Shown here: positions 1 to 56,420 of the stretch, piece after piece | How the letters are laid out: each line of letters begins with the position of its first letter | Numbering within the stretch: position 1 is the first letter of the stretch | Program-made: the position numbers and the translations under genes | The notes under the pieces: model-generated | Databases searched by the model: none | What the model was told of the DNA's origin: nothing | What the model saw: only the letters and a program-made list of their open reading frames with translations | Source of the DNA: Escherichia coli | Lineage (GTDB): Bacteria; Pseudomonadota; Gammaproteobacteria; Enterobacterales; Enterobacteriaceae | Reading direction: 5' to 3' (one strand) | Length of the DNA stretch: 64,000 bases | NCBI RefSeq assembly: GCF_009931435.1 | Contig: NZ_CP043414.1

Positions 1-3000
1 GCTGCTCCCAAAACGAACCCGTGGCGCACTGGCAGTAGTGTTGAACGCCCAGAGGGGGTCTTTGAATACCTCCATTCCATGCGCCGTGTTTTTACATAAC
101 GTAATGGCAGCAGATGCACTCTCTCCACGTCGACCCGCGCGGCCTGCACGCTGCAAATAATTTGCCGGAGCTGGAGGAACGTTGTTCATTGCCACCAAAC
201 TCATACCACCAATGTCCACCCCCATCTCCATGGTCGTGGAGCAGTTCAGCACATTAACTTTGCCTGACTTAAATTGTTTTTCATTAAACTGGTTCTGCTC
301 AGGCGTTCTCTGCGCAGAGTGTTCCTCCAGACGATACCAGCTATCTTTCAGGGCCAGTCGGTCGCTGCGAGTAGACCATAATCCTTCCTCGCGGGCATGT
401 TGAATCAGCGCATTACTTTCCAGCCACTCCAGACGTTCTTCTCGGGCGATTTCTCCACCACCAGACAAACGCCAGTGACGTACAGGAAGCTCAGGCATTT
501 CAATCAACACTGCTTTTTCAGGTGCAATTTCTTTGCTACCCGGCAAATACGGAGAGTATCCCAGTAACGTGACGTCTAACGCACGTCGAGTATAGGGGCA
601 ACGCCACACTTGCTTTGGACTGTAAAATTCAGCTTGTTGTTTAATATCCAGCTGATAACCCGACTCAAACTGACGTAAGCAGGGTCGAATTGCATCCCAG
701 ACCTCAATCATTAAGTGGTTAACTAACGATTTCCAGTGAGCCTGCTCAGGTTGTATTGCCGGAAAGACTGCAATTAATAGCTTAATGACCCGGTTATAAT
801 GGCGATCGCGTATTTGTGGCCAAAGTTGATCACGTTTCTGCCCTTTGTTTTTTTTATCTGGACCCTGCAGCATTTTTACCGGGAAACGAGCCCCCATCCA
901 GCGAGGGTATTGCTCGTTTTCGTAAAAAACGGCACTGTTTTCACGTATAAAGAAATCAAGAGTAATCTTCAATAAATTACGCCATTCCGCTAATTGCTTA
1001 TCGGGATCGGGTAATAATGTCTTCCAGTCCTGCGGGCAGGTTGTAACTTTATCAATAAATGGATAGTGAATGGCTACCAGACCCAGACTTTCGAGGGTCC
1101 AGGCATTTTTAGGGCGGCGACCAAACTCACTGTATAAACAAAAATCTGCAAACTGTTGTTTAGTAAGATCAAGCCCAGACAATTCTTTAAAACTGCCTCT
1201 CATTCTATCGGCAAGGTCCACACTGCCAACCAGCTGTTCAGACAGTGTTTGCCATGACATGGTTTTCTTCTGCTGATTGCCAGAGTTAGCCTGGAGTATT
1301 TGCATCGCTTCAGCATGATCCGGGCTTAAGGAACTCACCATCGGCTCGATAATTTTAAGTGCCTGAATGTCCGCCGGGCTAAGCTCTTCATTAGCAACCA
1401 TCGCTTTTTTCAGCGCGTCAATAGAGTTTTTTAAAGGAAGGATAGAAAACTGGGCAATAAAACTCTCTAACAATGCGCAGTGTGCCGGGCTGAGCTTTGC
1501 TGATGGCTCATTAATATTGGCCAGCTCCTGGTAGCAAAGAGCTCGCAACGTCGCTTTATCGGCATCCTGCTGTAAGCGGGCAGAAATGCGGGCAGTGCCC
1601 TGACGTGAATCCGTAAAGGTGAGCAGACGTCGACCATTAAACGGTCCTAACTGCTCTTCTCTTGTCTGCGGTAATGGTGAAAACTCCAGCAGAGTAGGAA
1701 TAATTTCATTTAAAAAAAAGGGCGCGCCAAGTCGAAGCGGACGGAATAAAGGATTATTTTTTCGTTGGGTGTCACCACAGCAAACACAAGCAAAGGAATT
1801 ATTACGTCCCTCACCTCGAGATTCCGGTCTTAACAGGTTTATTTCATAGTGCTTTTGCGCTTCACTATCAATTTTCCCCGCCGTCGTTTCTTCCAGTGAA
1901 ATGATATATTTTTCACCATCGCTCGCAATCAGACGATCAAATTGAGAGTTATTGTCTAATTCGTCGTTGTCTTCATCTTCAGAATAAACATCTACATCAA
2001 GAGCAAACTCATCCACTTCGGCAGCGGCGGGTTGCGCTACCAACCAGTTCGTTCCATCACCGCGCATCTCCTCTTTGGCAGACAAATAAGCTGAACCACA
2101 CCCGGAGCAACGTAAAACTTCAAATACCGGCGCACCACAGTCACAATATTGGCGCTGCTCAAACCATACCTGACCAAATGGCCAGTCACTCTGATTTAAT
2201 TCATGTGCTTTATGTGAGCATTGTTTGTTTGAACATGCCCATAGACCCGCCAGTGTTCTGATAAATCCATGCATACGTAATGGCGTAAAAGCCAGTTCAC
2301 CTTCTCGCGATCTTGCCATTAGATCGAGGAGTTGCAGTAGCTCACGGTGATTAATATCTGGCCAGGTTCTTCTGGCAACATTGAGCAACTCACTCAAACG
2401 TACTGCCTGCCGTCCGGGATGAGTTAACGCCTGACGCAATTGCTGGGCCACACGGTAATGACAAAGCTGTTGGTAAAGATCCTGAGGGCTCAGAGATTTA
2501 AGAGAAGTTAAAGATGTGGGGTATTCATGACGAATCAGCGACTCCGATACCCGCGGTATTTGTCGATAACCGCGAACCACTTTGACATCACGTTCTGTAA
2601 CGCCCGCGAGATCAGCGACAAATTTAGCAAGCTCCTTATTACCTTCAGGAGAGTCTTCACCAATAGTGGCAGAGGTCGCGATAATCTGCACAGGTTTATC
2701 TGTGCCGGGTCCAACATTGAAAGCCTGCATAACACGACGTAAAAGCAGCGCTAACTCAGCAGCCTGAGAACCAATATAACTATGGGCTTCATCCAGGACG
2801 ATATACTTTAACATCCCCTGAGACTTTTCGATGATTGGGGCATCTTTACGACGAATCAGCATATATTCCAGCATGGTGGTATTCGTCACCATGATGGAAG
2901 GTGGTGCTTCGTAAATGGCTTCCCGACTCAAAGCTTGTTCAGGTACTTTCAACTGATCTTCCTGAATTTCGTATTTGGTATGCCGGGTTTCGCCATTATA

Positions 3001-3543
3001 TAGCGCGAAGCGTATTTTCCCCTTAAATCCGCGCGTCCATTCGCGAAGCCGCTCCTGTTGACTGTTAATTAATGCATTTAACGGATACAAGAAAATAGCT
3101 TGTGTCCCTGTTAGTGACTGGCGGGTCGATTTTTGCTGACGAATAAGATCTTCCAGAACCGGTACCATAAAGCATTCTGTTTTCCCGGATCCCGTACCGC
3201 TGCTCACTAACAAGGATTTTTTGTCTTCCAGAATTGTTCGCCACGCAGTGAGTTGATGACGAAATGGCACTGGCGCTTTGCTCAATGCATCAACCAGCGG
3301 GCTGGAGATCAGCTTGTCCCGCAAATCCTCCATTGTTTCATCCGCAGGCATCCAGCCGAATGTACTTTCGAATACCGGGTCTGCAAGCAGTGACCCCTCC
3401 TGACCGGGAGGCTGAAAATATTGTGATTCCAGATAATGAGTCAACGACTTGCTCCGCAATGCCAACTGACTTACCACCGACCTCACCGCACGCTGATGAA
3501 GCTGATTTAGAAGTGGCGCATAATGCAGTTGCTGAACGTCCAT
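1..3543 (-). CDS. Large superfamily-2 DEAH helicase, C-terminus runs off the window (at least 1181 codons visible); candidate Druantia DruE-like
   Basis: Minus-strand frame appears uninterrupted from ATG at 3541-3543 to position 1 (checked by hand at several points; not in ORF track because no stop in window). Walker A SSGTGSGKT near 3179-3205, DEAH box VLDEAH at 2782-2799, motif V MEMGVDIGG near 205-231, motif VI QRAGRAGRRGE near 121-153. Cys clusters (FACVCCGD, CSNKQCSH, CDCGAPVFEVLRCSGCG) lie between about 1770 and 2260. Confidence 0.75.
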   Translation of the reverse strand, partial: MDVQQLHYAPLLNQLHQRAVRSVVSQLALRSKSLTHYLESQYFQPPGQEGSLLADPVFESTFGWMPADETMEDLRDKLISSPLVDALSKAPVPFRHQLTAWRTILEDKKSLLVSSGTGSGKTECFMVPVLEDLIRQQKSTRQSLTGTQAIFLYPLNALINSQQERLREWTRGFKGKIRFALYNGETRHTKYEIQEDQLKVPEQALSREAIYEAPPSIMVTNTTMLEYMLIRRKDAPIIEKSQGMLKYIVLDEAHSYIGSQAAELALLLRRVMQAFNVGPGTDKPVQIIATSATIGEDSPEGNKELAKFVADLAGVTERDVKVVRGYRQIPRVSESLIRHEYPTSLTSLKSLSPQDLYQQLCHYRVAQQLRQALTHPGRQAVRLSELLNVARRTWPDINHRELLQLLDLMARSREGELAFTPLRMHGFIRTLAGLWACSNKQCSHKAHELNQSDWPFGQVWFEQRQYCDCGAPVFEVLRCSGCGSAYLSAKEEMRGDGTNWLVAQPAAAEVDEFALDVDVYSEDEDNDELDNNSQFDRLIASDGEKYIISLEETTAGKIDSEAQKHYEINLLRPESRGEGRNNSFACVCCGDTQRKNNPLFRPLRLGAPFFLNEIIPTLLEFSPLPQTREEQLGPFNGRRLLTFTDSRQGTARISARLQQDADKATLRALCYQELANINEPSAKLSPAHCALLESFIAQFSILPLKNSIDALKKAMVANEELSPADIQALKIIEPMVSSLSPDHAEAMQILQANSGNQQKKTMSWQTLSEQLVGSVDLADRMRGSFKELSGLDLTKQQFADFCLYSEFGRRPKNAWTLESLGLVAIHYPFIDKVTTCPQDWKTLLPDPDKQLAEWRNLLKITLDFFIRENSAVFYENEQYPRWMGARFPVKMLQGPDKKNKGQKRDQLWPQIRDRHYNRVIKLLIAVFPAIQPEQAHWKSLVNHLMIEVWDAIRPCLRQFESGYQLDIKQQAEFYSPKQVWRCPYTRRALDVTLLGYSPYLPGSKEIAPEKAVLIEMPELPVRHWRLSGGGEIAREERLEWLESNALIQHAREEGLWSTRSDRLALKDSWYRLEEHSAQRTPEQNQFNEKQFKSGKVNVLNCSTTMEMGVDIGGMSLVAMNNVPPAPANYLQRAGRAGRRGESASAAITLCKNTAHGMEVFKDPLWAFNTTASAPRVRFGSS

Positions 3544-6500
3544 CAATGACATACTCCTGCTTGTTCAAAATAATATTGATAGATTACCCCTAATTGCTGT
3601 GGGGCTTGCTGATAGTGAAATTCAAAAAGCGCAGACAGTTGATGTATCAGGTTATTATCTTTTTGGGTTAACAGCGCTGCGACTAACATCAAATTAAAAC
3701 GTTTTTCAAGCCGTGAGTGATATTTATCTTCAATCCAAAGCTTATTAAAAACAGATTTTAACTCTGGAGTAATAGCACTAGACCAAAGTTCTTTAGGGAA
3801 GATACTGATACGCCCAAAGCTGTCGGGGTTCCTTAATAGCATCTGTTTAGCTTCATTAAACTGCTCACGACTAACAGTTGGCAATACATCACAACCGGTT
3901 GGTAGGCTCTCACTATATGTAAGTAACATATTCGCAATGGGAGCCAGCCGACGATCGATATGTGCACGATGGTTCATAAAAGCAATAAAGGGTTGCAATA
4001 TATGTAATGCTAATGTTTTATCGTTAATCTGTTTTTCCAGATAAGTCCAACATTTTTGGAAAACATCTTTCCAGATTGAAACGGGAATCCATCCCCATGA
4101 AAAGGGTAATTCTTCCTGTATATCATAAATCGTATCGCTATCACCAGAAAGACATGATGATATTAACAATTGAACAACCACGCGGTAATTACTCGAAATA
4201 CCTCTGAACAAGTCCAGATCCAGCAAGGATAAGCCATTATTCATTTTGTACTTCTTAATATACTCTGTTAATAAACAGCAATAATTTTGCAATGGGTTGT
4301 TATCTATTTCAAAAATTAGCTCATTAAAATTTTTTTTGCGCTGTTCTGGGTCTGCTTCGCATAGAGCATTTAGTAATAAATCATTTGTCTGCAATACAGG
4401 TAGCATCCATTTAATTACTGGTGCAATGCGAGCTGTACCATCAAGTTTTCCCACAATTAACCATGGACTATCCTGAACATTCAGAGCTGAAAGATCATAA
4501 GCAAATTCATCTTTTTTTAGCAATGATTTGTGTAAGCCAGGATCCTTAAGAGAAATAGCATCAACAACCAGTTCGTCTATTCTATTTGCAGGAAAAACAA
4601 CAGAATTTTTTATATCAACCAGCAACCCTTGATCGTGTTCAATAAAACTACCATCGTAGCGTTTAATATTGAGTGTTGCTTTATCCTTTCCAAATCTGTC
4701 AGAGTAAAAATCAACACATAATGTACTATTGCTGTTCCATGCACATGCCAGCATAGCATTTAGCAAATTATAGTTCTCATAAAGTGAAATTTGTTGTAAT
4801 TTGTCATTGCGTCCTGATAAAAGAGGAAGGTCGGCATGTAAATAACGGAATTTTTCAGCTACTGGATTTTCATCCAATAACTCGATATTAAGATATCCTC
4901 TTCCAGCACATGATATGGTTAATAACTCAGCATCTATTCCATGCAAATGTGCTATAGATGCCACACCATCAAAATGAACAGAACCATCATTAGTTACAAA
5001 TCGGCCACCGCTAACCGGCTTAGGTAATAATAGTTTAAGATTAGAACCATCTTTCCAGGAGACCCGTAAATCAACGGTATTTTCCAGCATCTGCGATGAA
5101 TTATAATAAATAGCACACTCGTTTTGTGAATAATCGGACTTAAGTGTTACTTTTTCATTGTTTGAATATTTATCAATTCTAGTATCCGTTATACCAGAAA
5201 GCATAATAATGCCTTGCTGAGCACTCTCAGGTATAATATTAATATCGAAGTCTGCTGGTAAAACTACAACTTTACCGCTAAATAAAACCTCATCATTAAC
5301 TATTCGCCGGACTTCTATCTGTCCTTTTGGCATTTCTGATGCGACAGAATACCAGGCATTGTTACCTGAACGAATGGAACGCCAAAAAAGTTCTTTCTCC
5401 GGTACAATGCCATATTGCAGATCCTTTTTCCAACCGATCTTCGGCCAGGCTCGATGGACAGGATAATCCGATTTAACCAGTTCAACTTCTGTCGATTTAA
5501 TATAATATTCAATCGCAGAATCATAAAGTTGCTGGGTGCGAATTGTACAAACAGCACCATCATGTAAAACAACGCTAAATACTCCACTTATTTTAGTTAA
5601 GCTGCGTTCACTGTTTTTCAGCAACCTTGGGATATCAAACTCACCTTCTCCACTAATATCTAAATGGCTATTTTTCGGTAGCGAAATAAACAGAGCATTT
5701 AGCCTGGAACTCACAGACCCCATACCGACAAGTTTTAGCTGCGATTCACTCTCATTCATCGCTTCAAAAACCCAGGGGAGTTCTTCAGTAAGTTCATAAC
5801 CGCCTTTTGGAATTGTGTGGCCTAACAGAATTGGACCTTCATGAAGCGACAACGAGATTTCGGCCATTGCATCTGCACCAGAGAGCTTTTGCATCGCAAT
5901 AGGTAATAACTCGACCCGCCAATCTTGCTGCTCATAACGGCTTAGCATTGCCAACCTTGCCCCGCCATTTCTCCATTTTCCTGAAATGATGAGTCGGGTC
6001 TGCTCCGGCTGAATATGGCATTCAAACAAAGAGGTTAACTGTTCTGTACGCATTGTGGCCGGGAATCGGAACCGGGCATCACAATACCAACTGTCATCAA
6101 CATCGACCCAGATTCTTTCAACCTGAAGACTACTTGCACTGCGTATTTCAGAAGATTGAGAAAGTAATCGCCTTACAATCTCTGCAGCATTCGCTTCGGG
6201 GAGAACGAGTGGAAGTTGAAGATGCCAGTCTGGAGAGAGCTTACGTAATGCAGAAACGGGATCACTGCTTTGAGGTGGATGCTCACTAAGTAATCGGCAG
6301 AGAGTCTCGCAGAATTCACCGGCTATTTCATAGACCAGTTCGTTTTGCATTGTGACAGGAATCGTATCGCCTAATTCTTGTGCAATTTTAGCGGCAGGAT
6401 ATTGAGATGCTTGCCCACGAAGCGCCTGATATATCCTTCTGAAATAGGTAATCAAATAACCGCTCTCATTTTCAATCATGCGGATAGGTAAACCACCTTC

Positions 6501-6902
6501 ACAAGCCAGTGTATGCAGATAACCCGAAGCTTGCCCCAGGTTTCTTATCTTTCTTTTCCAGTAGCGAATGCCATCATTAACCAGCTTCTGTCGATGAACA
6601 TACGGAACTTTCCAGTCAATAGAATCTAAAATTGTGTCCCATTTAGGGTGTCCGACCGTATGAGTCCGGCGGATAAACTCTGCGGCATATATGCTAAATA
6701 GAACATCGCTATAGGAAATGAATATCGTTCTTGGATAACTACGAGGGGCATATGTACGCAGTAGTTCTGCCAAACTTTCGTACTCTGTATCAGTACAACG
6801 GTAAGCATATAACGCCCGTCCATCAGCTCCGGATAATGAACGGCGACTAAAAAACATGTTAAGCCATTGCAAAAGTGGGTTAACTGGAGTTTTCACAAGC
6901 AA
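3543..6902 (-). CDS. Hypothetical 1119-aa protein, no recognisable motifs; upstream partner of the helicase (candidate DruH-like)
   Basis: Single long ORF in track; AT-rich; its TGA stop overlaps the helicase ATG (ATGA at 3541-3545), implying translational coupling. Confidence 0.6.
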   Translation of the reverse strand: MLVKTPVNPLLQWLNMFFSRRSLSGADGRALYAYRCTDTEYESLAELLRTYAPRSYPRTIFISYSDVLFSIYAAEFIRRTHTVGHPKWDTILDSIDWKVPYVHRQKLVNDGIRYWKRKIRNLGQASGYLHTLACEGGLPIRMIENESGYLITYFRRIYQALRGQASQYPAAKIAQELGDTIPVTMQNELVYEIAGEFCETLCRLLSEHPPQSSDPVSALRKLSPDWHLQLPLVLPEANAAEIVRRLLSQSSEIRSASSLQVERIWVDVDDSWYCDARFRFPATMRTEQLTSLFECHIQPEQTRLIISGKWRNGGARLAMLSRYEQQDWRVELLPIAMQKLSGADAMAEISLSLHEGPILLGHTIPKGGYELTEELPWVFEAMNESESQLKLVGMGSVSSRLNALFISLPKNSHLDISGEGEFDIPRLLKNSERSLTKISGVFSVVLHDGAVCTIRTQQLYDSAIEYYIKSTEVELVKSDYPVHRAWPKIGWKKDLQYGIVPEKELFWRSIRSGNNAWYSVASEMPKGQIEVRRIVNDEVLFSGKVVVLPADFDINIIPESAQQGIIMLSGITDTRIDKYSNNEKVTLKSDYSQNECAIYYNSSQMLENTVDLRVSWKDGSNLKLLLPKPVSGGRFVTNDGSVHFDGVASIAHLHGIDAELLTISCAGRGYLNIELLDENPVAEKFRYLHADLPLLSGRNDKLQQISLYENYNLLNAMLACAWNSNSTLCVDFYSDRFGKDKATLNIKRYDGSFIEHDQGLLVDIKNSVVFPANRIDELVVDAISLKDPGLHKSLLKKDEFAYDLSALNVQDSPWLIVGKLDGTARIAPVIKWMLPVLQTNDLLLNALCEADPEQRKKNFNELIFEIDNNPLQNYCCLLTEYIKKYKMNNGLSLLDLDLFRGISSNYRVVVQLLISSCLSGDSDTIYDIQEELPFSWGWIPVSIWKDVFQKCWTYLEKQINDKTLALHILQPFIAFMNHRAHIDRRLAPIANMLLTYSESLPTGCDVLPTVSREQFNEAKQMLLRNPDSFGRISIFPKELWSSAITPELKSVFNKLWIEDKYHSRLEKRFNLMLVAALLTQKDNNLIHQLSALFEFHYQQAPQQLGVIYQYYFEQAGVCH

Positions 6903-7113
6903 CCTGCCTTCCTTTGATACAATTCGTAACAGGTTACTATCATCATAAAAAAGCTCAACCCGATGAACTCGCTAAAAATGAGACAAATCATTTATATCTC
7001 GAAAAAACTTGTTACAATCATGAGCGCTACACCGAACTTAACCATATAAATTATGTGCGTTTTGTTTATTTTTTAAACAATTACAACTATCCATTATTTA
7101 CACAGGTATCAAA

Positions 7114-8766: not shown

Positions 8767-8772
8767 TCGATC

Positions 8773-9480
8773 ATGGATAAGATTATAGGGAAACAATTAC
8801 CTAAAAAAGATCAAGATAATGAACACTGGGTATCCATGTCAGACCTAATGGCAGGGCTGATGATGGTTTTTATGTTCATATCTATTGCTTATATGCACTA
8901 CGTACGTATTGAAAAAGAAAAAATTAAAGAAGTTGCCGTAGCCTACGAGAATGCTCAGTTACAGCTTTATAATGCTCTGGATATTGAGTTTGCAAAGGAT
9001 TTACAAGACTGGGATGCAGAGATCGATAAACAGACTCTGGAGGTTCGATTTAAATCACCGGATGTTTTATTTGGCTTAGGAAGCACAGAGCTAAAACCAA
9101 AGTTTAAACTCATTCTTGACGACTTCTTTCCTCGCTACCTAAAAGTTCTAGATAATTATCAGGACCATATTACTGAAGTCCGCATTGAAGGTCACACAAG
9201 TACTGACTGGACAGGAACAACGAATCCTGATATTGCTTATTTTAATAATATGGCACTATCACAAGGTCGTACACGTGCAGTATTACAATACGTTTATGAC
9301 ATAAAAAATATCGCGACACACCAACAATGGGTTAAAAGTAAATTTGCCGCAGTAGGTTATTCATCTGCACATCCCATTCTTGATAAAACCGGCAAGGAGG
9401 ATCCTAATCGCTCTCGTCGTGTCACCTTCAAAGTTGTAACAAATGCCGAATTGCAGATTAGAAAGATTATTCAGGAGTAA
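8773..9480 (+). CDS. zorB: MotB/OmpA-like peptidoglycan-anchoring protein; ZorB-like
   Basis: N-terminal TM segment (LMAGLMMVFMFISIAYM) and C-terminal OmpA/MotB-like region (NMALSQGRTRAVLQYV, NRSRRVTF); starts 6 nt after zorA stop. Confidence 0.65.
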   Translation: MDKIIGKQLPKKDQDNEHWVSMSDLMAGLMMVFMFISIAYMHYVRIEKEKIKEVAVAYENAQLQLYNALDIEFAKDLQDWDAEIDKQTLEVRFKSPDVLFGLGSTELKPKFKLILDDFFPRYLKVLDNYQDHITEVRIEGHTSTDWTGTTNPDIAYFNNMALSQGRTRAVLQYVYDIKNIATHQQWVKSKFAAVGYSSAHPILDKTGKEDPNRSRRVTFKVVTNAELQIRKIIQE

Positions 9481-9483
9481 GAG

Positions 9484-10587
9484 ATGAAATTATCTATCGA
9501 CATTTCAGAACTTATTCAATTAGGGAAGAAAATGTTACCAGAAGGAGTCGATTTTTTTCTGGATGAATCCCCTATTGACTTTGATCCTATAGATATTGAG
9601 TTATCCACGGGTAAAGAAGTTAGTATCGAAGATCTTGACCCTGGTAGCGGGCTTATCTCTTATCATGGCCGCCAGGTTCTTTTATATATTCGGGACCATT
9701 CAGGGCGTTATGATGCGGCTATCGTAGATGGCGAAAAAGGAAAACGTTTTCATATTGCCTGGTGCAGAACTCTTGATGAAATGCGCCATAAAAATCGATT
9801 TGAAAGGTATCATGCAACTAACCGCATAGATGGTTTATTCGAAATTGATGATGGTTCAGGTCGGAGCCAGGATGTTGATTTACGGGTATGTATGAATTGC
9901 CTCGAACGACTTAATTATAAAGGAAGTATTGATAAACAACGAAAAAGAGAGATTTTTAAATCATTCTCATTAAATGAGTTTTTTTCAGATTATAGTACCT
10001 GTTTTCGTCATATGCCTAAGGGTATCTATGACAAAACAAATAGTGGGTATGTCGAAAACTGGAAAGATATATCTAAATCAATACGAGAAAAGGCAAATTA
10101 TGTTTGTAATGATTGTGGCGTGAATTTATCAACCGCCAAAAACTTGTGCCATGTCCATCATAAAAATGGCATCAAATATGATAATCACCATGAAAACCTT
10201 CTTGTTCTGTGCAAGGATTGCCATCGAAAACAGCCCCTCCACGAAGGTATATTCGTTACCCAAGCTGAGATGGCTATCATTCAACGTTTACGTTCCCAAC
10301 AAGGGTTATTAAAAGCAGAATCCTGGAATGAAATATATGACCTGACTGATCCATCAGTGCATGGTGATATTAATATGATGCAACATAAAGGCTTTCAACC
10401 TCCTGTTCCTGGGTTAGATCTTCAAAACTCAGAACATGAAATTATTGCAACCGTAGAAGCTGCATGGCCAGGCCTTAAAATTGCAGTTAACCTTACTCCC
10501 GCCGAAGTCGAAGGATGGAGAATATATACCGTGGGTGAGCTGGTTAAAGAAATACAAACAGGAGCCTTTACGTCAGCAACGTTGTAA
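9484..10587 (+). CDS. zorE: HNH endonuclease-domain protein; ZorE-like (Zorya type II effector)
   Basis: C-terminal HNH signature CNDCGVNLSTAKNLCHVHHKNG...NHHENLLVLCKDCH; starts 3 nt after zorB stop. Confidence 0.6.
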   Translation: MKLSIDISELIQLGKKMLPEGVDFFLDESPIDFDPIDIELSTGKEVSIEDLDPGSGLISYHGRQVLLYIRDHSGRYDAAIVDGEKGKRFHIAWCRTLDEMRHKNRFERYHATNRIDGLFEIDDGSGRSQDVDLRVCMNCLERLNYKGSIDKQRKREIFKSFSLNEFFSDYSTCFRHMPKGIYDKTNSGYVENWKDISKSIREKANYVCNDCGVNLSTAKNLCHVHHKNGIKYDNHHENLLVLCKDCHRKQPLHEGIFVTQAEMAIIQRLRSQQGLLKAESWNEIYDLTDPSVHGDINMMQHKGFQPPVPGLDLQNSEHEIIATVEAAWPGLKIAVNLTPAEVEGWRIYTVGELVKEIQTGAFTSATL

Positions 10588-10597
10588 ATTCCGAAAC

Positions 10598-10623
10598 TCC
10601 GTGAAAGTTAAGACTTTCACGGA
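10598..10623 (+). other. 11-bp stem hairpin just after zorE stop (terminator-like, no U-tract)
   Basis: tccgtgaaagt-taag-actttcacgga. Confidence 0.35.
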
Positions 10624-10796
10624 AGATAAATAAAATTCTCCTGATTTGTGACTCAAATTATAAAAGTCGTTTATGGCATAACTTGTCTGTTTTTTTGGTG
10701 TAATAGGTATAAAGGCATATGCTATGGTTAGCCTTATATTTAAAACTTTCCTCATACGGGTGAAGGTTAAAGCTTGGTAGATAGGTTACAGTCACA

Positions 10797-11406
10797 ATGA
10801 ATAAAGCAATAACGGTGCTTGCTATAATGATGGCTTCATTTTCCGTAAATGCGTATGTATTACCGGAAACGCCTGTGCCATTTAAAAGTGGTACCGGAGC
10901 AATTGATAACAACACTGTCTACATTGGTTTAGGTAGCGCAGGTACGGCATGGTACAAGCTGGAGAAACAGACCAAAGATAAAAAAATGGACAGCGTTAGC
11001 TGCATTTCCTGGTGGACCGAGAGATCAAGCAACTTCTGCATTTATTGATGGCAATCTGTATGTGTTTGACGGCATTGGCAAAAACAGTGAGGGCTTGACT
11101 CAGGTATTTAATGACGTTCACAAATACAACCTCAAAACCAATAGCTGGGTTAAATTGATGTCGCACGCGCCGATGGGCATGGCGGGTCATGTGACATTTG
11201 TACACAACGGCAAGGCTTATGTTACTGGCGGTGTTAACCAGAATATCTTCAATGGCTATTTTGAAGATCTTAACGAAGCTGGAAAAGATTCAGCGTACCG
11301 GTCACCGGAGAACTGGATGACGGTACTGCGAAGCAGTCATTTCAGTCGGGGGATGATTGTAGACAAATTTGTTGACGCTATTTTGCGGTTTTGGCGTGAA
11401 GGGTGA
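10797..11406 (+). pseudogene. nanM: N-acetylneuraminate epimerase (nanM/yjhT) N-terminal fragment, frameshifted and truncated
   Basis: ORFs 10797-11048 and 11062-11406 together carry the NanM signal peptide and first Kelch-like repeats (MNKAITVLAIMMASFSVNAYVLPETPVPFKSGTGAIDNNTVYIGLGSAGTAWYKL; FDGIGKNSEGLTQVFNDVHKYNLKTNSWVKLMSHAPMGMAGHVTFVHNGKAYVTGGVNQNIFNGYFEDLNEAGKD) but are split by a frameshift and end far short of the full-length protein. Confidence 0.6.
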
Positions 11407-11413
11407 GCGTTCA

Positions 11414-12064
11414 TTAATTTGATTTATTTGCATCCATCAACGCTTTTAACTGCTCCGGCGAAAACGGTGGTTTGCGTCGGTGCAACATCGCATGGCAATT
11501 AGGGCACACAGGAAGCAAATCATTAACTGGATCCAGCTGGTAATTCTCTTTAATGGCTGAAAGCGGCACCAGGTGATGCACATGGATAAAGCCTTCAGCG
11601 ATATCACCATAGATCTTCACCAGATCAACGCCGCATACGTTGCACTGGCATCCATGATGTTCGACCGCTTTATCTCGGGCCTTTTTATCGCGTTCATAGC
11701 GGTTTACTGTCACCTTTATCGCCGCACCTTCAACGTATGTCTCCTGCGACGGCAACTCATCCGGGAACAGAACGTCGGCTATGGGAGCCGCAGCGGCTTT
11801 ATCCTGATGAATATGAAATCCCTGCTCTATGAGTAGTTTGACGCATTTAGATTTTATTCCGCCGGTGAAATCCGCAGGGGTAAATTGCGTCCCCGTCATC
11901 AATGTCGCTGCGATGCCAGCAATCGCCTTCGAGGGGTAACGTCGGCCATGATATTCAATCTCATACAACCGCGCAGGCTGGAACTGATGAGTTTCTCCCG
12001 CATCCCATAAATGGATAGCTTCGATGATATACCGCCGCGGAAGATGATCAGGGAGTTTATTCAT
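11414..12064 (-). CDS. HNH endonuclease with about 140-aa N-terminal domain of unknown function
   Basis: C-terminal HHGCQCNVCG...HVHHLVPLS...NDLLPVCPNCHAMLH (zinc-finger HNH); N-terminal region has no motif I recognise. Confidence 0.7.
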   Translation of the reverse strand: MNKLPDHLPRRYIIEAIHLWDAGETHQFQPARLYEIEYHGRRYPSKAIAGIAATLMTGTQFTPADFTGGIKSKCVKLLIEQGFHIHQDKAAAAPIADVLFPDELPSQETYVEGAAIKVTVNRYERDKKARDKAVEHHGCQCNVCGVDLVKIYGDIAEGFIHVHHLVPLSAIKENYQLDPVNDLLPVCPNCHAMLHRRKPPFSPEQLKALMDANKSN

Positions 12065-12143
12065 GGAGAATGTCCTTATACGTTCTCAGAACAGGCAGCA
12101 AAAAAACAAATGAGATCAAGGTAATATATCTTCACTTGCAGGC

Positions 12144-13073
12144 TTGAACAGCAGAAAATTTGCGAGCATGATCGCAATTATTTCACTGCCAGGGATATCA
12201 ATGGCTTCCAGTAAATCGCTACAGCAGGCAATTGCCAATATAAAAATCTGGCACAAGGGTGAACAGCGCGCGCCGCATAAGCCATTGTTATTGCTATACG
12301 TATTAGCGGGATACCTGAATGGACATCCGCGCCTTTTCGATTATGGCTCGGAAATCTACGAACCTCTGCACAGTTTACTGGAACGTTTTGGGCCACAGCG
12401 TTCACAGTACCGACCTGATATGCCGTTCTGGCGATTACAAGGCGACGGATTCTGGCAATTACACAATGCCGAACTTTGCTCAACAGCAGGGAGTAGCCGA
12501 CAACCGCCAGTGAAGGAACTGACCGAACACCGCGTTGCAGGCGGTTTCGATGAACAGCACTATGCCCTGGTAATCGGCAATAAAAAACTCATCAATACCC
12601 TGGCGCAACAGATACTCGAAGCGCACTTCACCGAGAGCATTCAGGAAGAAATTGCTGACGAGCTGGGTTTTGATCTCCAGCAAATCCGTAAACAGCGCGA
12701 CCCGTTATTTCGCAAACTTGTATTGCGCGCATATAACTACCAGTGCGCGATATGTGGCTTTAATATGCGCCACGATGACACCACCGTCGCACTGGAAGCA
12801 GCGCATATAAAATGGAAACAGCACGGCGGTCCTTGTGAAATTCCTAATGGCCTGGCGCTTTGTGCAATACACCATAAAGCCTTTGATAAAGGATCGATTG
12901 GCCTGGATGAAAATATGCGGGTACTGGTCTCGGATGCGGTAAACGGCGGAGGGATCGTTGAGAAACTATTCTGGGATTTTGACGGGAAAACTATTGCGTT
13001 ACCACAGGTGCGTAAAAATTACCCTTTTGAGGGGTTTGTGGAGTGGCATCGAAAAGAGGTTTTTAGGGGGTGA
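12144..13073 (+). CDS. HNH endonuclease with about 190-aa N-terminal domain of unknown function (start may be a downstream Met, e.g. 12201)
   Basis: HNH signature CAICGF...AAHIKWKQHGGP...NGLALCAIHHKAFDKG; divergent from the 216-aa HNH gene across a 79-bp spacer. Confidence 0.7.
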   Translation: MNSRKFASMIAIISLPGISMASSKSLQQAIANIKIWHKGEQRAPHKPLLLLYVLAGYLNGHPRLFDYGSEIYEPLHSLLERFGPQRSQYRPDMPFWRLQGDGFWQLHNAELCSTAGSSRQPPVKELTEHRVAGGFDEQHYALVIGNKKLINTLAQQILEAHFTESIQEEIADELGFDLQQIRKQRDPLFRKLVLRAYNYQCAICGFNMRHDDTTVALEAAHIKWKQHGGPCEIPNGLALCAIHHKAFDKGSIGLDENMRVLVSDAVNGGGIVEKLFWDFDGKTIALPQVRKNYPFEGFVEWHRKEVFRG

Positions 13074-13114
13074 GGTTGATAACTATCGCAGTATGTTCAA
13101 TATTGCTGACATAA

Positions 13115-13297
13115 TCAGTGCAGGATCTTGCCGCTAGTTTACAACTCGCCTTCGATAGCGGCGCAAAACGAGTTCTGTTGCCGATATCCTCGGCTATGGA
13201 TATTCCAACAGTTCCGGCAGAGTTGTTTACCAAGTTTCAGGTAAGTTTTTACTCAGAACCGGTTGATGCGGTTTATAAGGCGCTGGATGTGAATTAA
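13115..13297 (+). pseudogene. C-terminal remnant of a Lon-like protease gene (possibly BrxL-like), no start codon
   Basis: Open frame with no Met translates to SVQDLAASLQLAFDSGAKRVLLPISSAMDIPTVPAELFTKFQVSFYSEPVDAVYKALDVN, resembling the extreme C-terminus of Lon-family proteases (compare Lon AAHRGGIKTVLIPFENKRDLEEIP...). Confidence 0.4.
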
Positions 13298-13628
13298 CAC
13301 ATTCCTCAGCTTATTTACAAAAGGATTATTCCCATTTGATATAATATCAGTGCCAATTTACTTTTTTCAATGGAATATATCTCGGCTAAATAACAATAAA
13401 ACTTATCGCTAATGGATTAAATAAACAATTTTCTAATTTATTTCACCACCTTTGATATAGAAATTGATGGTGTTGTCGCTGCCATTGCTTATGGTGATGA
13501 TAAAATCCACGTTTCTGGATCGGTGCGTAGAAAATCATCACTTCCTTGATATTTTGATGCGATATGATCATACCGTTCCGTAGTACCAATTTCAACTTCA
13601 GGCTAAACCCCAACATTAAAAAAATTAG

Positions 13629-13672
13629 AGTTATTCACTGATTATATTATCAATAATATAATCAGTGAATAA
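13629..13672 (-). terminator. Perfect 20-bp inverted repeat immediately downstream of the 682-aa gene, followed on the minus strand by a T-run; likely intrinsic terminator
   Basis: gttattcactgattatatta / tcaa / taatataatcagtgaataac; minus-strand downstream sequence ctctaatttttttaatg. Confidence 0.5.
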
Positions 13673-13695
13673 CATGGACTATATAATAAATTGCT

Positions 13696-15744
13696 CTAAT
13701 CATTTCCCTTACGAATATATGGGCCAAAAGCCCAAGAATCATAATAAGGGTGATGGACTAATTTTTCATTAAATCGAACACTATAAGTTAATTTTTTTAT
13801 ATTTTTACGTACAGCATTAATACTGGGCAAAGAGGAAAGATAATCTATAAACTTATCGATAGTGATTTTCCCTTCGCAACACTCAAACCCATCAATGATA
13901 TTTTTCGCCATTTTTCCATTTTCATTTGTTTGATATATCACTCCAGGTATTCGTTGAAAAAAACTAGATAATGCATATTTGTCCGCTACATATGTATCAT
14001 CCACATGATATTTCCCACCGAGCATAGTTGTAGTAACAATAAGCTTATACACACCTTTGGGTTGCCATGTTGATGGTAGTTCGAATTCTTTAATGATCAC
14101 ATCAAGATGATTAAGATAATGTTCAGAAATTCGATTTATTTGTTGAAAATAAGAACGCATAAATTTATTATTATGATCATGTATTAATGAGCTATCTCCA
14201 ACGATGTTACACACTTGCTGATAGTACTTACCATAATATATTGGTTGACCATTTGATTTTAGTTCTGTAAAAATCAAACAATCATCCAGGAGAATCACGC
14301 AATCGCACTGATAATTAGCATGAGCATCAATTGGAGAAGCTTTAATCCCCGCATCACGAACTTGTTTTATAAATTGTTGCTCATGAAATCGCCCTTTACT
14401 TGCTTGAGAAATTTTTTTGGAACCAAATAATGACATTAGAGAGCGAGTCACTGAGCTATTTGCTATTAATGCAGGCATTAAGCATAAACCGTCCATACAG
14501 GGAATAAATGGGCAATCATTAAGATCATGTGATTTTGAATTGAAGGTAAAATAATCTATCAGTTTTTTTGCTGCATCTGCTGCAATCCCCTTACGTTGAA
14601 AGAATGATAACCAACTCTCACGGCTTTTTATGACCAGCCAGCGATCCAACTGTAGGGGTATAGGTTTTGTCGATGAAAATCTTTTGCTCATTTCTTCTTT
14701 AGATAACTCGACTAAACATTGATAAGCGTGCACCCAATTAAATAATGATATATTCCCATATTCTTCATGAAGGTCATCAGGAGACATATTTTCCAACTCG
14801 CTTAAATGAAATGAGCTAAAAACGCCATCAGAATTTAAGTAAGATGGCATATGATCCTTTACCCAACTATTTAGATGAAAATGTTTGTTACTAAATTCAT
14901 GAACTTCGCTATATAGATGTGACGCTCTCATCATTAGTCTATTTCTTGCAATCTCATAATCTCGGTATAAACAAAAACTATCAACCTCAAGAGAGTAAAT
15001 GTTATTATCCAATTTTGTAAATACTGCACTACTTAGTCTGAAAAAGTCTCTTACTCTGCTTAATGAGTCAAAAACATTCCACTCATTAAGGTACCCTCCC
15101 ATTGAAAGCAAGGTTTGTTTATTCACACAAGAAGTTAGTTTCAATGGCCCATGAGTCCGTAAATAAGAAAATATTCTTCCGGTGTAATTGGCTACCTCAT
15201 CAAATGCCCTATCGATAACTCGAAAATATTCGATATCAGGTTCAGCATGAATATTAATATTTTCAGAAACGATAAATAATGGAAAAATCCTCTTCATTTT
15301 TTTAGGATCATTGACCACAACCAAGGATGATAATGATGATAAAAACATCTCACAAAACATGATGAGATTAAGTATTAATGCATGTGATTTTTTTGTATTT
15401 TTACGCCAAATACCAGCACATTTTGCAGCCCCAAAGAAAGAATTATTTATATCATGCATAATTTTACATTGACTCTCGAACTCAGAGATTAGTTCAATGT
15501 TATCAGGAAATGAGTTTACTAGCTCATTAATACATTTTTTGAATGTATTGTTATACTCAACTTCAGTCTGAACTGAAAATCTATTATAATAGATGGAAGA
15601 TATTCTCAGCACATCCAAGGCGATATCTATACTAATATCATCTCTTTTTATGTACTCACAAAAAAAAGAACAAAACTGTTTCGGGTCGTTAGCAAGATTA
15701 CTAATTCTAGTGGTATCATAAACTTTTTCCATTTTTCCATACAT
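13696..15744 (-). CDS. Hypothetical 682-aa protein, very AT-rich, no confident domain assignment
   Basis: Single long ORF flanked by more than 600 bp of AT-rich non-coding DNA on each side; possible PD-(D/E)xK-like motif CDCVILLDDCLIFTELK in the C-terminal third (weak). Confidence 0.6.
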   Translation of the reverse strand: MYGKMEKVYDTTRISNLANDPKQFCSFFCEYIKRDDISIDIALDVLRISSIYYNRFSVQTEVEYNNTFKKCINELVNSFPDNIELISEFESQCKIMHDINNSFFGAAKCAGIWRKNTKKSHALILNLIMFCEMFLSSLSSLVVVNDPKKMKRIFPLFIVSENINIHAEPDIEYFRVIDRAFDEVANYTGRIFSYLRTHGPLKLTSCVNKQTLLSMGGYLNEWNVFDSLSRVRDFFRLSSAVFTKLDNNIYSLEVDSFCLYRDYEIARNRLMMRASHLYSEVHEFSNKHFHLNSWVKDHMPSYLNSDGVFSSFHLSELENMSPDDLHEEYGNISLFNWVHAYQCLVELSKEEMSKRFSSTKPIPLQLDRWLVIKSRESWLSFFQRKGIAADAAKKLIDYFTFNSKSHDLNDCPFIPCMDGLCLMPALIANSSVTRSLMSLFGSKKISQASKGRFHEQQFIKQVRDAGIKASPIDAHANYQCDCVILLDDCLIFTELKSNGQPIYYGKYYQQVCNIVGDSSLIHDHNNKFMRSYFQQINRISEHYLNHLDVIIKEFELPSTWQPKGVYKLIVTTTMLGGKYHVDDTYVADKYALSSFFQRIPGVIYQTNENGKMAKNIIDGFECCEGKITIDKFIDYLSSLPSINAVRKNIKKLTYSVRFNEKLVHHPYYDSWAFGPYIRKGND

Positions 15745-16421
15745 CCTATTGTCTAAATTACTATAAAATTAGCCACTTAACTAATAATTATAAATTTCAT
15801 CTTTTGCACCTTGCATTTTTATAACCAATGAAATCTACAACAAGCAACTGATGGATAATCCGATATTGGTCGCATTTAATGGCATGGTAGCAAAGTTTTC
15901 ATCACATACCTCCTTTGCACCAGAATAAACGCCAGAGACCTGAAATTGCGAGTACACTACAGAAATTGTACTGCCGGTCCCATCAGCATAAAACCATAGT
16001 TACACAGGTAATCATCATTATTCACCAAGATAATAAATATTATTCGGTAGAATAGCGTTCTCAGGTGGTCAGTAAAATTGTCTTCAACAAGATGTCTGCG
16101 CATCTCGTCTGCTAGCCCTACATAACTGCTCTCGACCGAAACTATTTATTGAATGTTCACCAAGGTGGGCGTGGAGACAAAATGACGTCTTTTGATATTA
16201 GCTACCTGAGCCACATGGTCAAAACGTTCAAGTAGCATAGCGAAACCACCCTGCCCACGTAATGTGGACGATGCAGCTTCCAGCCAGAGCAAACTTGGGA
16301 CCATCGACTACCAAATGAAGAATACTGAACTGCTTTTCTGGCAGGCCTATATACTGCACGGATATGGGTGATTTCAGACACAAAAAAAGCCGCTCTTGAG
16401 CGACTCGATTTGCATACGGTG

Positions 16422-16506
16422 TGGTGCCGAAGGCCGGACTCGAACCGGCACGTATTTCTACGGTTGATTTTGAATCAACTGCGTCTACCGATTTCGCCAC
16501 TTCGGC
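16422..16506 (-). tRNA. leuX: tRNA-Leu (anticodon CAA), leuX
   Basis: Minus-strand sequence GCCGAAGTGGCGAAATCGGTAGACGCAGTTGATTCAAAATCAACCGTAGAAATACGTGCCGGTTCGAGTCCGGCCTTCGGCACCA, with T-loop GGTTCGAGTCC and 3' CCA; matches recalled leuX. Confidence 0.9.
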
Positions 16507-26959: not shown

Positions 26960-28474
<1,515 letters not shown>

Positions 28475-45583: not shown

Positions 45584-45850
45584 AAGGAGTCCCTCCGCAC
45601 TGTCTGAAACAGTGCAGAAATGTCTTCAGGCGTGGCGAAGCCTTACCTGAAGGTAATAAAGCTGAGCTGGGACGTTAAAACGTCACGGCCTTACGCATCC
45701 GGTAACGCCGTGAAAAGACGGGCTTACCGGAAAAGTTTTAATCTCCGTCGAGGGAGAGGCGTGGGATCAGGTTCCATATAACCTCCGGTAAGTGAAAAAA
45801 GCGCCGCAAATAATAAGGAGAATCCAATAATATTCGTGGCATTTATGGCG
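45584..45850 (-). promoter_or_regulatory. mgtA 5' leader (Mg2+/proline-sensing riboswitch-attenuator region)
   Basis: Long untranslated leader between the presumed promoter and mgtA start, containing mgtL; assignment by established knowledge of the mgtA leader, boundaries approximate. Confidence 0.55.
45724..45777 (-). CDS. mgtL: mgtA leader peptide
   Basis: 17-aa proline-rich peptide [17 protein letters not shown] (C-terminal end of track ORF 45724-45930) upstream of mgtA. Confidence 0.8.
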
Positions 45851-56304: not shown

Positions 56305-56420
56305 GGTTTGCCGGATGCGGTGCACCTGTAGGCCTGATAAGACGCATCAAGCGTCGCATCAGGCACTATGCTCAAATGCCGGATGCGGCGTGAACGCCTT
56401 ATCCGGCCTACACACACTAT
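56305..56420. repeat. REP/BIME cluster between yjgA and mpl
   Basis: Three REP-like units (gccggatgcggtgcacctgtaggcctgataagacgc..., gcgtcgcatcaggc, gccggatgcggcgtgaacgccttatccggcctaca). Confidence 0.6.

What the first reader, a model, noticed from the sequence alone, without database searches (positions are those of the whole stretch)
1..16506. leuX-associated accessory island without a visible integrase, carrying stacked defence cargo
Everything downstream of the tRNA-Leu 3' end is AT-rich, non-backbone DNA holding the helicase operon, Zorya-like genes, HNH nucleases, an orphan ORF and two gene remnants. I found no integrase-like coding sequence in the 675 bp next to the tRNA or elsewhere in the window. 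In K-12 this site carries KpLE2 with intB, so here the island has different content and possibly a degraded or distal integration module.
Basis: partly seen in the sequence, partly recalled or inferred. Interest (0 to 1): 0.6.

Follow-up and report, generated by a model that had tools for sequence, protein, structure and literature searches.

The report
Integrase-less leuX defence island mosaic
The DNA beside the leuX tRNA gene is a patchwork of mostly known anti-phage defence genes at E. coli's best-documented defence hotspot; it is real and has no integrase, but the site and its main cargo are already described in the literature.

Summary
leuX (tRNA-Leu CAA) is at 16422-16506 (-). The DNA downstream is accessory (GC 0.41 vs 0.50). 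It has no integrase gene or remnant, and no second copy of the leuX 3' end within about 59 kb.

It is not one degraded island. It has four layers:
1. 1-10766: the right part of the known O157 "OI-172/SpLE6" block, with Druantia III (druE cut by the window edge, druH) and Zorya II (zorA2/B2/E). ARMADA II lies left of the window.
2. 10767-11460: a diverged partial duplicate of the backbone (nanM', ythB-like segment).
3. 11414-13073: an HNH gene and a phosphorothioate-DNA-binding HNH restriction gene, found in 23% and 39% of E. coli.
4. 13074-16421: the last 59 codons of brxL (a BREX relic), a 682-aa uncharacterised NERD/PD-(D/E)xK protein with Upx-like fold, and a 677-bp spacer.

The joints look like recombination or IS scars, not att sites. 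In sister strains an integrase-bearing KpLE2-like element sits between leuX and this same island.

leuX is published "hotspot #37", where most occupants lack a detectable mobile element. [quoted passage not shown] Verdict: already known, low interest. The NERD protein is the only unexplored part.

The parts
1..3543 (-). 3' part of druE (C-terminal 1181 of 2104 aa), the Druantia type III helicase-nuclease. The gene is cut by the window edge, not in the genome.
   Evidence: PADLOC DruE3 PDLC00037, E = 0, full length on the complete gene from the 99.2%-identical genome. No stop codons; 99.2% aa identity to Sakai ECs_5260.
3543..6902 (-). druH (STY4851/ECs_5259 = YjiT family), 1119 aa, Druantia type III
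   Evidence: PADLOC DruH3 PDLC00041, 2551 bits, residues 3-1119. NCBIfam NF038336, 988 bits against a cut-off of 150. 99.4% aa identity to Sakai ECs_5259.
6903..7113 (.). Intergenic region between the divergently transcribed druHE and zorABE operons (promoter role inferred)
   Evidence: Gene coordinates. Divergent transcription is described for EDL933 in bioRxiv 10.1101/2025.09.22.677730.
7114..10587 (+). Zorya type II operon: zorA2 7114-8766, zorB2 8773-9480, zorE 9484-10587
   Evidence: PADLOC ZorA2 999 bits (1-550), ZorB2 347 bits, ZorE2 586 bits, each full length. 98.6-99.6% aa identity to Sakai.
10767..11292 (+). Diverged partial duplicate of the backbone: last 11 bp of nanC, the intergenic stretch, and the first ~495 bp of nanM (nanM', frameshifted pseudogene)
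   Evidence: 93.2% identical to the strain's own intact nanM 34 kb to the left. Its allele-specific substitutions are shared with the Sakai and plasmid copies and absent from four backbone alleles. Annotated as a partial, frameshifted N-acetylneuraminate epimerase.
11290..11460 (.). Segment B': second, diverged copy of the ythB-like small ORF (11337-11414, -) and the 3' end of the HNH gene
   Evidence: 85.8% identical to the copy just right of nanS. Base-level alignment of both joints. The native copy is backbone, present in 5010 genomes.
11414..12064 (-). HNH endonuclease, 216 aa; semi-conserved flank gene; probable type IV-like restriction nuclease (inferred)
   Evidence: Pfam HNH at residues 141-197. 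Weak PADLOC mREase_IV hits. Its interior is present in 1236 of 5426 genomes, far more than carry the block. Precisely absent in K-12 and truncated in UTI89.
12201..13073 (+). Phosphorothioated-DNA-binding HNH restriction endonuclease (SBD-HNH), 290 aa; semi-conserved anchor gene on the distal side of the hotspot
   Evidence: NCBIfam NF045808, 436 bits against a cut-off of 180. Its 3' end is in 2133 of 5426 genomes, and homology stops just after the stop codon. A 248-bp relic remains in K-12.
13118..13580 (+). BREX relic: the last 59 codons of brxL (13118-13297) plus the ~280 bp that follow brxL in intact BREX loci
   Evidence: TIGR02653 BrxL positions 617-675 of 675, E = 4e-24. 84-94% nt identity to the ends of intact brxL genes. 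Strain O111:NM 08-4377 has a full BREX-1 at the same position next to SBD-HNH.
13696..15744 (-). 682-aa 'orphan': a member of an uncharacterised long NERD / PD-(D/E)xK nuclease family with Upx-like fold; candidate single-gene defence protein (function inferred)
15745..16421 (.). 677-bp non-coding spacer including the leuX terminator. Only the ~50 bp next to the tRNA are shared with K-12.
   Evidence: Present in 357 genomes and never annotated as a gene. No integrase similarity. Homology with K-12 ends at about window 16367.
16422..16506 (-). leuX, tRNA-Leu(CAA). Bases 16422-16444 are the 3' segment reused as the attachment site by integrase-bearing elements.
   Evidence: ARAGORN and Rfam. In UTI89, Ecol_316 and Sakai a second (sometimes degenerate) copy of this 23-mer marks the end of an element inserted at leuX.

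Best explanation
Window 1-16421 is the leuX-proximal 16.4 kb of a ~37.7-kb variable segment between leuX and nanS. It has no integrase. This is E. coli defence hotspot #37.

It is a layered mosaic, not one integrated element. Reading leftward from the tRNA:
(a) A small leuX-proximal slot. A BREX-1 system has been almost entirely deleted here, leaving 59 codons of brxL. A single-gene NERD/PD-(D/E)xK protein now sits next to the tRNA.
(b) Two semi-conserved restriction-type genes (HNH, and SBD-HNH that targets phosphorothioated DNA). They form the usual distal flank of the hotspot.
(c) The ~33-kb block known from O157:H7 as OI-172/SpLE6: Zorya II, Druantia III and, beyond the window, ARMADA II.

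How the block got there (inferred). It was imported from a diverged donor by recombination, not by tRNA-site integration. On its right it brought the donor's own copy of nanM-(nanS)-ythB-HNH, and the crossover fell in that homologous DNA. On its left an IS-associated or illegitimate joint formed 46 bp inside the recipient's HNH gene. This left diverged direct duplicates on both sides of the block. The redundant right copy has since decayed by different deletions in different lineages.

What the cargo does (from published experiments on 98.6-99.6%-identical proteins). Zorya II is a ZorAB membrane motor with the ZorE nickase. Druantia III has DruH as the likely sensor and DruE as helicase-nuclease. 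Together they protect against phage and act synergistically.

The leuX attachment site itself is intact and unoccupied in this strain.
For: Shown by tools:
- System identities come from full-length HMM matches, with near-identity to Sakai proteins.
- The block is 97.4-98.6% identical at DNA level to Sakai SpLE6 and is in 504 genomes.
- There is no integrase and no distal repeat.
- APEC O1 has leuX directly followed by spacer, NERD gene, brxL', SBD-HNH, HNH' and nanS, about 4.7 kb with no block. 104 genomes have the intact leuX|spacer junction.
- Ecol_316 has leuX, an intact integrase, KpLE2-like genes, a degenerate repeat, then this island.
- Two diverged direct repeats flank the block: a 527-bp nanM repeat at 93.2% and a 183-bp ythB/HNH-end repeat at 85.8%.
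- The left joint is native B plus 46 bp of HNH, then an IS remnant. That joint is shared by 444 genomes.
- The right copy carries allele-specific changes absent from four backbone alleles. Those changes are shared by the window, Sakai and plasmid copies.
- Sakai's right copy has different internal deletions.
- Between this strain and Sakai the block is more similar (97.4-98.3%) than either flank (96.0% left; 94.3-96.6% right).
- The block, with its nanM fragment, occurs on 4 E. coli plasmids between IS elements. druHE alone occurs on Klebsiella plasmids.
- A full BREX-1 sits in the proximal slot of strain O111:NM 08-4377.

From the literature:
- Hotspot #37 is the richest defence locus, and 68% of its occupants have no detectable mobile element (PMC10121019; PMC12707154).
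- Deletion mutants in EDL933 show defence by the three systems (bioRxiv 10.1101/2025.09.22.677730).
- The Druantia III mechanism and its synergy with Zorya II are described in PMC13192584 (abstract).
Against: - The recombination route is inferred from scars only. No donor genome with the nanM' allele in a native setting was found.
- The excess similarity of the block over the flanks is modest and rests on one pairwise comparison.
- The IS remnant at the left joint was not identified. No matching IS end exists at the right edge of the chromosomal copy.
- In Sakai and O111 truncated integrase genes do lie in the leuX-proximal slot. An integrase-mediated origin for that small slot, followed by complete loss here, cannot be excluded.
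- Defence activity of the HNH gene, the SBD-HNH gene and the NERD protein in this strain is untested.
Confidence: 0.75

Rival explanations
1. A single P4-type tRNA-integrating genomic island whose integrase and distal attachment repeat have decayed or been deleted.
For: It abuts the 3' end of a tRNA gene that integrases do use. GC is low. Related strains have truncated integrase genes in the leuX-proximal slot: Sakai ECs_5253 and O111:NM 08-4377. Sakai's annotation draws the whole region as one 'phage-like element SpLE6'.
Against: There is no integrase similarity at any level in the window or in 59 kb to the left. No distal repeat is found even with indels, and none in Sakai, K-12 or O111 either. 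The HNH and SBD-HNH genes in the middle are in 23-39% of genomes, independently of the block. The block has its own duplicate-plus-IS boundaries well away from the tRNA. The truncated Sakai integrase is separated from the block by the semi-conserved SBD-HNH gene.
Confidence: 0.12
2. The Zorya/Druantia/ARMADA block is a composite IS-bounded transposon that transposed into the nanS-HNH interval.
For: An IS transposase pseudogene lies exactly at the left joint. Plasmid copies are bracketed by IS3-family and ISKpn26 elements. 25 plasmids carry all or part of it.
Against: The chromosomal right edge shows no IS remnant, only the zorE terminator running into nanC/nanM'. No target-site duplication is seen. 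What flanks the block are 183-527-bp diverged duplicates of chromosomal DNA, which transposition does not create. The plasmid copies carry the chromosomal nanM fragment, so they derive from the chromosome rather than the reverse.
Confidence: 0.1
3. The block is ancestral at this locus and is simply inherited vertically. Strains without it (APEC O1, UTI89, K-12) lost it by deletion.
For: The left joint is identical in 444 genomes. In UTI89 and APEC O1 the HNH gene is truncated close to where the block joins, as a deletion might leave.
Against: The duplicated nanM' and B' copies are 7-14% diverged from the native copies in the same genome. The block is closer between Sakai and this strain than the flanking backbone is. 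The preprint reports the three systems in 66 serotypes and in other genera. Copies exist on plasmids. The UTI89 truncation point in HNH differs from the block's joint.
Confidence: 0.08

Closest known systems
[quoted passage not shown]
   Same: Same genes in the same order, at 97.4-98.6% DNA and 98.6-99.6% protein identity, including the nanM fragment next to zorE. Same chromosomal interval, leuX to nanS.
   Different: In Sakai the block lies behind another element (SpLE5, with its own integrase), followed by a truncated integrase and SBD-HNH. The HNH gene and most of nanM' are deleted there, and the UDG-family gene is missing. Here the leuX-proximal slot holds a BREX relic and a NERD protein, with no integrase.
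E. coli defence hotspot #37 (Hochhauser et al. 2023, PMC10121019; reviewed in PMC12707154)
   Same: Anchored by leuX. Stacked defence systems with replacement. Zorya and BREX are preferentially found here. 68% of occupants have no detectable mobile element.
   Different: The review states that an integrase is present at the tRNA anchor. This strain, and 104 genomes with the same leuX|spacer junction, have none.
KpLE2 / PR-Y cryptic element of E. coli K-12
   Same: Same attachment site at the leuX 3' end and the same distal backbone (nanS-nanM-nanC-fimB).
   Different: KpLE2 has intB (a pseudogene in MG1655) and metabolic cargo (fec, sgc, nanXY). It shares only ~50 bp after leuX, plus relics of SBD-HNH and ythB, with this window. 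In Ecol_316 a KpLE2-like element and this island are stacked in tandem.
Upx, single-protein PD-(D/E)xK anti-phage nuclease (PDB 9wuf; PMC13099982)
   Different: Upx is 1212 aa with two nuclease domains. There is no detectable sequence similarity: no PADLOC hit and no PDB profile hit. TM-score is only 0.34. Function is untested.
Immigration control region (hotspot #36; hsd-mcr-mrr)
   Same: An integrase-less defence locus where alternative cassettes replace each other between conserved anchors, presumably by homologous recombination (PMC12707154).
   Different: Different chromosomal site and gene families. Here a tRNA attachment site is also available and is used by other elements.

Membership tests
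Zorya type II | zorA (MotA-like), zorB (MotB-like) and zorE (HNH nickase) adjacent in one operon | tested here: met
   Full-length PADLOC ZorA2, ZorB2 and ZorE2 hits on three consecutive + strand genes, 7114-10587.
Druantia type III | druH plus druE (large YprA/DUF1998 helicase) adjacent | tested here: met
   DruH3 and DruE3 models, E = 0, full length. The genes overlap by 1 bp. druE is complete only when the 99.2%-identical genome is used, because the window cuts it.
Anti-phage activity of Zorya II / Druantia III in this strain | Loss of the genes sensitises the host to phage | not testable with these tools
   Shown for EDL933 mutants in bioRxiv 10.1101/2025.09.22.677730. Proteins here are 98.6-99.6% identical to Sakai's.
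tRNA-integrated genomic island (P4-type integrase) | Lies immediately 3' of a tRNA gene | tested here: met
   Accessory DNA starts ~50 bp after leuX.
tRNA-integrated genomic island (P4-type integrase) | Tyrosine integrase gene next to the tRNA | tested here: not met
   tblastn with ECs_5253, ECs_5242 and FimB gave nothing better than E = 0.1 in the window. None is annotated.
tRNA-integrated genomic island (P4-type integrase) | Direct repeat of the tRNA 3' end at the distal boundary | tested here: not met
   Only the tRNA's own copy was found in the window plus 59 kb of left flank, allowing up to 4 edits. 0 of 20 shuffles gave a hit.
BREX type I | brxA, brxB, brxC, pglX, pglZ and brxL all present | tested here: not met
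   Only BrxL residues 617-675 remain. The full operon is at the same site in strain O111:NM 08-4377.
Phosphorothioate-dependent SBD-HNH restriction endonuclease (NF045808) | Full-length match above the curated cut-off | tested here: met
   436 bits against a cut-off of 180, residues 6-289. Activity and host PT-modification status were not tested.
Upx | Sequence membership (Upx model or PDB sequence match) and dual nuclease domains | tested here: not met
   No PADLOC hit at E <= 0.001. No PDB sequence-profile hit. One invariant D-ExK motif. The resemblance is at fold level only.
Hotspot #37 occupant (Hochhauser 2023) | Defence genes located at the leuX-anchored variable locus | tested here: met
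   Position between ahr/leuX and nanS-nanM-nanC-fimB. Literature description.

The most novel reading that the evidence does not exclude
[quoted passage not shown] This arm is its own diverged copy of the target locus (nanM'-ythB'-HNH). It would let RecA-dependent recombination anchor one end next to nanS, while the other end is closed by an IS or illegitimate joint. IS-flanked plasmid copies would serve as shuttles. If general, this would answer the open question of how the 'MGE-less' occupants of hotspot #37 are mobilised. Separately, the 682-aa NERD protein beside leuX may be a new Upx-like single-gene defence system.
Probability: 0.3. Interest if true: 0.5.

Novelty: already known. Interest (0 to 1): 0.25.

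Why it matters
The value is mostly clarification.

- It shows that the absence of an integrase here is the normal state of the resident DNA, not decay. An unoccupied, still usable leuX attachment site lies in front of it.
- The scars (diverged nanM/ythB duplicates, an IS joint, a 59-codon brxL stub) give concrete, testable evidence. They suggest that defence cargo at this hotspot turns over by recombination and deletion.
[quoted passage not shown] It belongs to a widespread unannotated family and would be a reasonable candidate for a defence screen.

Tried and rejected
- **Distal repeat of the leuX 3' end.** I searched the window and ~59 kb of left flank of the near-identical genome, first with substitutions only and then with indels. 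None was found. The indel search was needed because tandem strains carry a repeat with a 1-bp deletion, which the first search missed.
- **Integrase remnant in the 677-bp spacer.** tblastn and a sensitive blastn against all E. coli found no gene-derived homolog.
- **The 682-aa ORF as a recombinase occupying the integrase's position.** Rejected. It has an invariant PD-(D/E)xK motif and a nuclease fold.
- **First structure prediction of that protein.** With 7 sequences the model was unusable (pLDDT 50). It was replaced by a 101-sequence alignment (pLDDT 92.8).
- **Donor of the nanM' allele, and the block's right edge in other species.** Two exact-pattern scans of the species-representative genome collection found nothing. 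Exact matching is probably too strict.
- **The upstream helicase/methylase genes as DISARM.** PADLOC gives DrmD-like and DrmMI-like hits, but the literature classifies the operon as ARMADA II. It lies outside the window.
- **Rfam scan.** In the island it found only the tRNA.

Full report
**1. Checking the observation**

ARAGORN and Rfam place one tRNA in the window, tRNA-Leu(CAA) = leuX, at 16422-16506 on the minus strand. Its 3' end therefore faces lower coordinates.

The segment 1-16421 has GC 0.409, against 0.504 for the rest of the window. It is uneven. The druE part is 0.47 and the two HNH genes are 0.49. Zorya is 0.38 and the 3.3 kb next to the tRNA is 0.35.

No integrase is detectable. 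tblastn with two leuX-island integrases from O157 Sakai, a serine recombinase and FimB gives nothing better than E = 0.1 anywhere in the 64-kb window. The annotation of a 99.2%-identical complete genome (NZ_CM148325.1) has none across the window's span.

The whole arrangement is accessory. It occurs in 96 of 5426 complete E. coli genomes.

**2.

Window position 1 falls inside a 2104-aa gene. In the near-identical genome the variable DNA continues for 21.3 kb. It contains the rest of that gene, three more large helicase/methyltransferase genes, a UvrD-like helicase, a UDG-family gene and an IS transposase pseudogene. The backbone then resumes at nanS-nanM-nanC-fimB. The variable segment is thus about 37.7 kb, between nanS and leuX.

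It contains no integrase. tblastn finds only fimB and fimE in the backbone. No second copy of the leuX 3' end is found, even allowing four edits including indels, and 0 of 20 shuffles gave a hit. K-12, Sakai's distal end and an O111 strain also lack such a distal copy. Its absence is therefore general at this locus.

**3. What the genes are**

- *Druantia type III.* PADLOC models identify window 3543-6902 as DruH and the 2104-aa helicase as DruE, both full length with E = 0.
- *Zorya type II.* Window 7114-10587 encodes ZorA2, ZorB2 and ZorE, a complete system.
- *ARMADA II, outside the window.* The genes to the left give DrmD-like, DrmMI/type IIG-like, DruE-like and GajB-like hits. [quoted passage not shown] Deletion mutants there show broad and synergistic anti-phage protection (bioRxiv 10.1101/2025.09.22.677730). 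A 2026 preprint defines DruH as the likely sensor and DruE as the helicase-nuclease effector (PMC13192584, abstract).
- *Similarity to O157.* The proteins here are intact and 98.6-99.6% identical to those of O157 Sakai.
- *The two HNH genes.* Window 12201-13073 is a phosphorothioated-DNA-binding HNH restriction endonuclease (NF045808, 436 bits against a cut-off of 180). Window 11414-12064 is a small HNH protein.
- *The two remnants.* One is a frameshifted 5' part of nanM at 10797-11292. The other is the last 59 codons of the BREX protease BrxL at 13118-13297 (TIGR02653 positions 617-675 of 675).

**4. Anatomy: four layers, not one island**

*Layer 1, the leuX-proximal slot (13074-16421).*
- The 677-bp spacer is in 357 genomes. 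It directly abuts an intact leuX in 104 of them.
- APEC O1 shows the minimal state. leuX is followed by spacer, the NERD gene, brxL', SBD-HNH, a truncated HNH and nanS. That is about 4.7 kb with no mobile-element gene.
- In strain O111:NM 08-4377 the same slot holds a complete BREX-1, a PLD protein, AbiE and a truncated integrase.
- brxL' and the ~280 bp after it match the ends of such intact loci at 84-94%. A BREX system was therefore deleted here.

*Layer 2, HNH and SBD-HNH (11414-13073).*
- The SBD-HNH 3' end is in 2133 of 5426 genomes. Homology stops just after its stop codon.
- The HNH interior is in 1236 genomes.
- K-12 keeps a 248-bp SBD-HNH relic beside nanS.
- These genes are semi-conserved flank genes of the hotspot, with backbone-like GC.

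*Layer 3, the diverged duplicate (10767-11460).*
- The strain has two direct repeats bracketing the big block. One is a 527-bp nanC-end/nanM-5' segment at 93.2% identity. The other is a 183-bp ythB-like/HNH-3'-end segment at 85.8%.
- The left copy is native-type. It ends 46 bp inside HNH, where an IS remnant begins.
- The right copy carries substitutions absent from four backbone alleles. Those substitutions are shared by the window, Sakai and plasmid copies.

*Layer 4, the block (left of 10766).*
- It is in 504 genomes. The left joint is in 444 of them. The right joint, zorE terminator into nanC/nanM', is present in essentially all of them, including Sakai and plasmids.
- In Sakai the right-hand duplicate has different internal deletions. 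It joins nanM'' directly to SBD-HNH. The common ancestor therefore had a fuller duplicate, which is decaying independently in each lineage.

**5. Relation to integrase-bearing elements**

Of the 30 best-matching genomes listed, the first seven match straight through leuX. The other 23 match only up to window 16445.

In Ecol_316 the order is: ahr, leuX, an intact 402-aa tyrosine integrase, KpLE2-type genes (nanXY, fec) and CP4-like genes. Next comes a degenerate copy of the leuX 3' end with a 1-bp deletion, and then this island. UTI89 has its PAI in the same position. Sakai has SpLE5 there.

KpLE2-type elements are therefore not alternatives to this island. They insert at leuX in front of it. 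The window strain has an empty attachment site.

**6. Most likely history (inferred)**

The block, with the donor's nanM-(nanS)-ythB-HNH on its right, was imported from a diverged lineage. The right end resolved by homologous recombination in the HNH/SBD-HNH region. The left end joined through an IS-associated or illegitimate event inside the recipient's HNH gene. This leaves diverged duplicates on both sides, as observed.

Supporting points:
- Between this strain and Sakai the block is 97.4-98.3% identical. The flanks are 96.0% on the left and 94.3-96.6% on the right.
- The preprint reports the trio in 66 serotypes and other genera.
- Four E. coli plasmids carry the block with the nanM fragment between IS elements. 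Klebsiella plasmids carry druHE alone.

I could not find the donor. The mechanism is deduced from scars only.

Rival explanations are a degraded P4-type island, a composite transposon, and vertical inheritance with loss. Each explains part of the data and fails on specific points listed in the rivals section.

**7. The 'orphan' ORF**

The 682-aa protein has no Pfam, PADLOC, NCBIfam or PHROGs hit. Close homologs are few: Salmonella at 75%, and Izhakiella, Xenorhabdus, Pectobacterium and Pantoea at 41-56%.

A profile search of 1.8 billion representative proteins finds 360 clusters, mostly about 650 aa. In 101 aligned sequences P412, G451, D481, E494 and K496 are invariant. D481, E494 and K496 form a D...ExK nuclease motif.

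Homologs sit beside a type I R-M system plus a Cap4 nuclease, at a prophage end, and next to an integrase.

It is a plausible single-gene defence nuclease. It is not a Upx family member by sequence, and its function is untested.

**8. Comparison with what is known, and verdict**

leuX is hotspot #37 of Hochhauser et al. 2023, the most defence-rich locus in E. coli. In 68% of cases no mobile element is detectable there, and the authors say the mode of mobilisation is unclear (PMC10121019; PMC12707154).

The main cargo is the published OI-172/SpLE6 block. The finding is therefore real and correctly observed, but already known.

What this analysis adds:
- the layered dissection of the region;
- the evidence that the SpLE6 annotation lumps unrelated layers together;
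- the recombination scars at the joints;
- the structural assignment of the NERD protein.

Interest is low, about 0.25.

Noticed in passing
window 35665-37410 (-): A 581-aa ORF (annotated as a 525-aa hypothetical in the near-identical genome) in an AT-rich patch (GC 0.32) between argF and tabA. No PADLOC or NCBIfam hit. Looks like a small separate accessory insertion.
   Followed up: partly
L001:5818-6848 (outside the window, inside the ArmB methyltransferase gene): A segment of roughly 0.3-1 kb of the ARMADA II methyltransferase does not align, or aligns at only 82%, between this strain, Sakai, Ecol_316 and the plasmid copy. The rest of the block is 97-99% identical. This may be a swapped target-recognition region.
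   Followed up: no
L002:38714-39364 (+), left end of the block: A uracil-DNA-glycosylase-family gene between the IS remnant and armD. It has no PADLOC, NCBIfam or PHROGs hit and is precisely absent from Sakai.
   Followed up: partly
window 16367-16421: The ~50 bp after leuX (the terminator hairpin) are shared with K-12, which has intB downstream. The variable DNA therefore begins about 50 bp past the tRNA rather than at its 3' end.
   Followed up: partly
window 13696-15744 (-): The NERD gene is annotated with different lengths in different genomes (587, 674, 678 and 682 aa). It is a pseudogene with an internal stop in Ecol_316.
   Followed up: no
window 17.7-22.8 kb: The idnK-idnD-idnO-idnT-idnR cluster is present here and in APEC O1 but absent from O157 Sakai, where ahr is followed directly by yjgR.
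   Followed up: no
window ~52866-53105 (-): A lone RelB/DinJ-family antitoxin gene between nrdG and cybC, with no annotated toxin partner.
   Followed up: no
L009:42269-42744 (K-12, between yjhR and nanS): K-12 retains a 248-bp relic of the SBD-HNH gene and the ythB segment beside nanS. The HNH ORF is cleanly absent between short TTCAT repeats.
   Followed up: partly
plasmids NZ_CP031815.1 and NZ_CP035203.1 (Klebsiella pneumoniae): Two Klebsiella plasmids carry druE-druH at 95.5% identity without Zorya. Several ~90-105-kb E. coli plasmids carry only a druE 3' fragment.
   Followed up: no
window 27521-27715, 45677-45792, 56331-56408, 62562-62638: Rfam hits in the backbone: Ysr276, the Mg riboswitch (mgtA leader), and two naRNA4 copies.
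   Followed up: no
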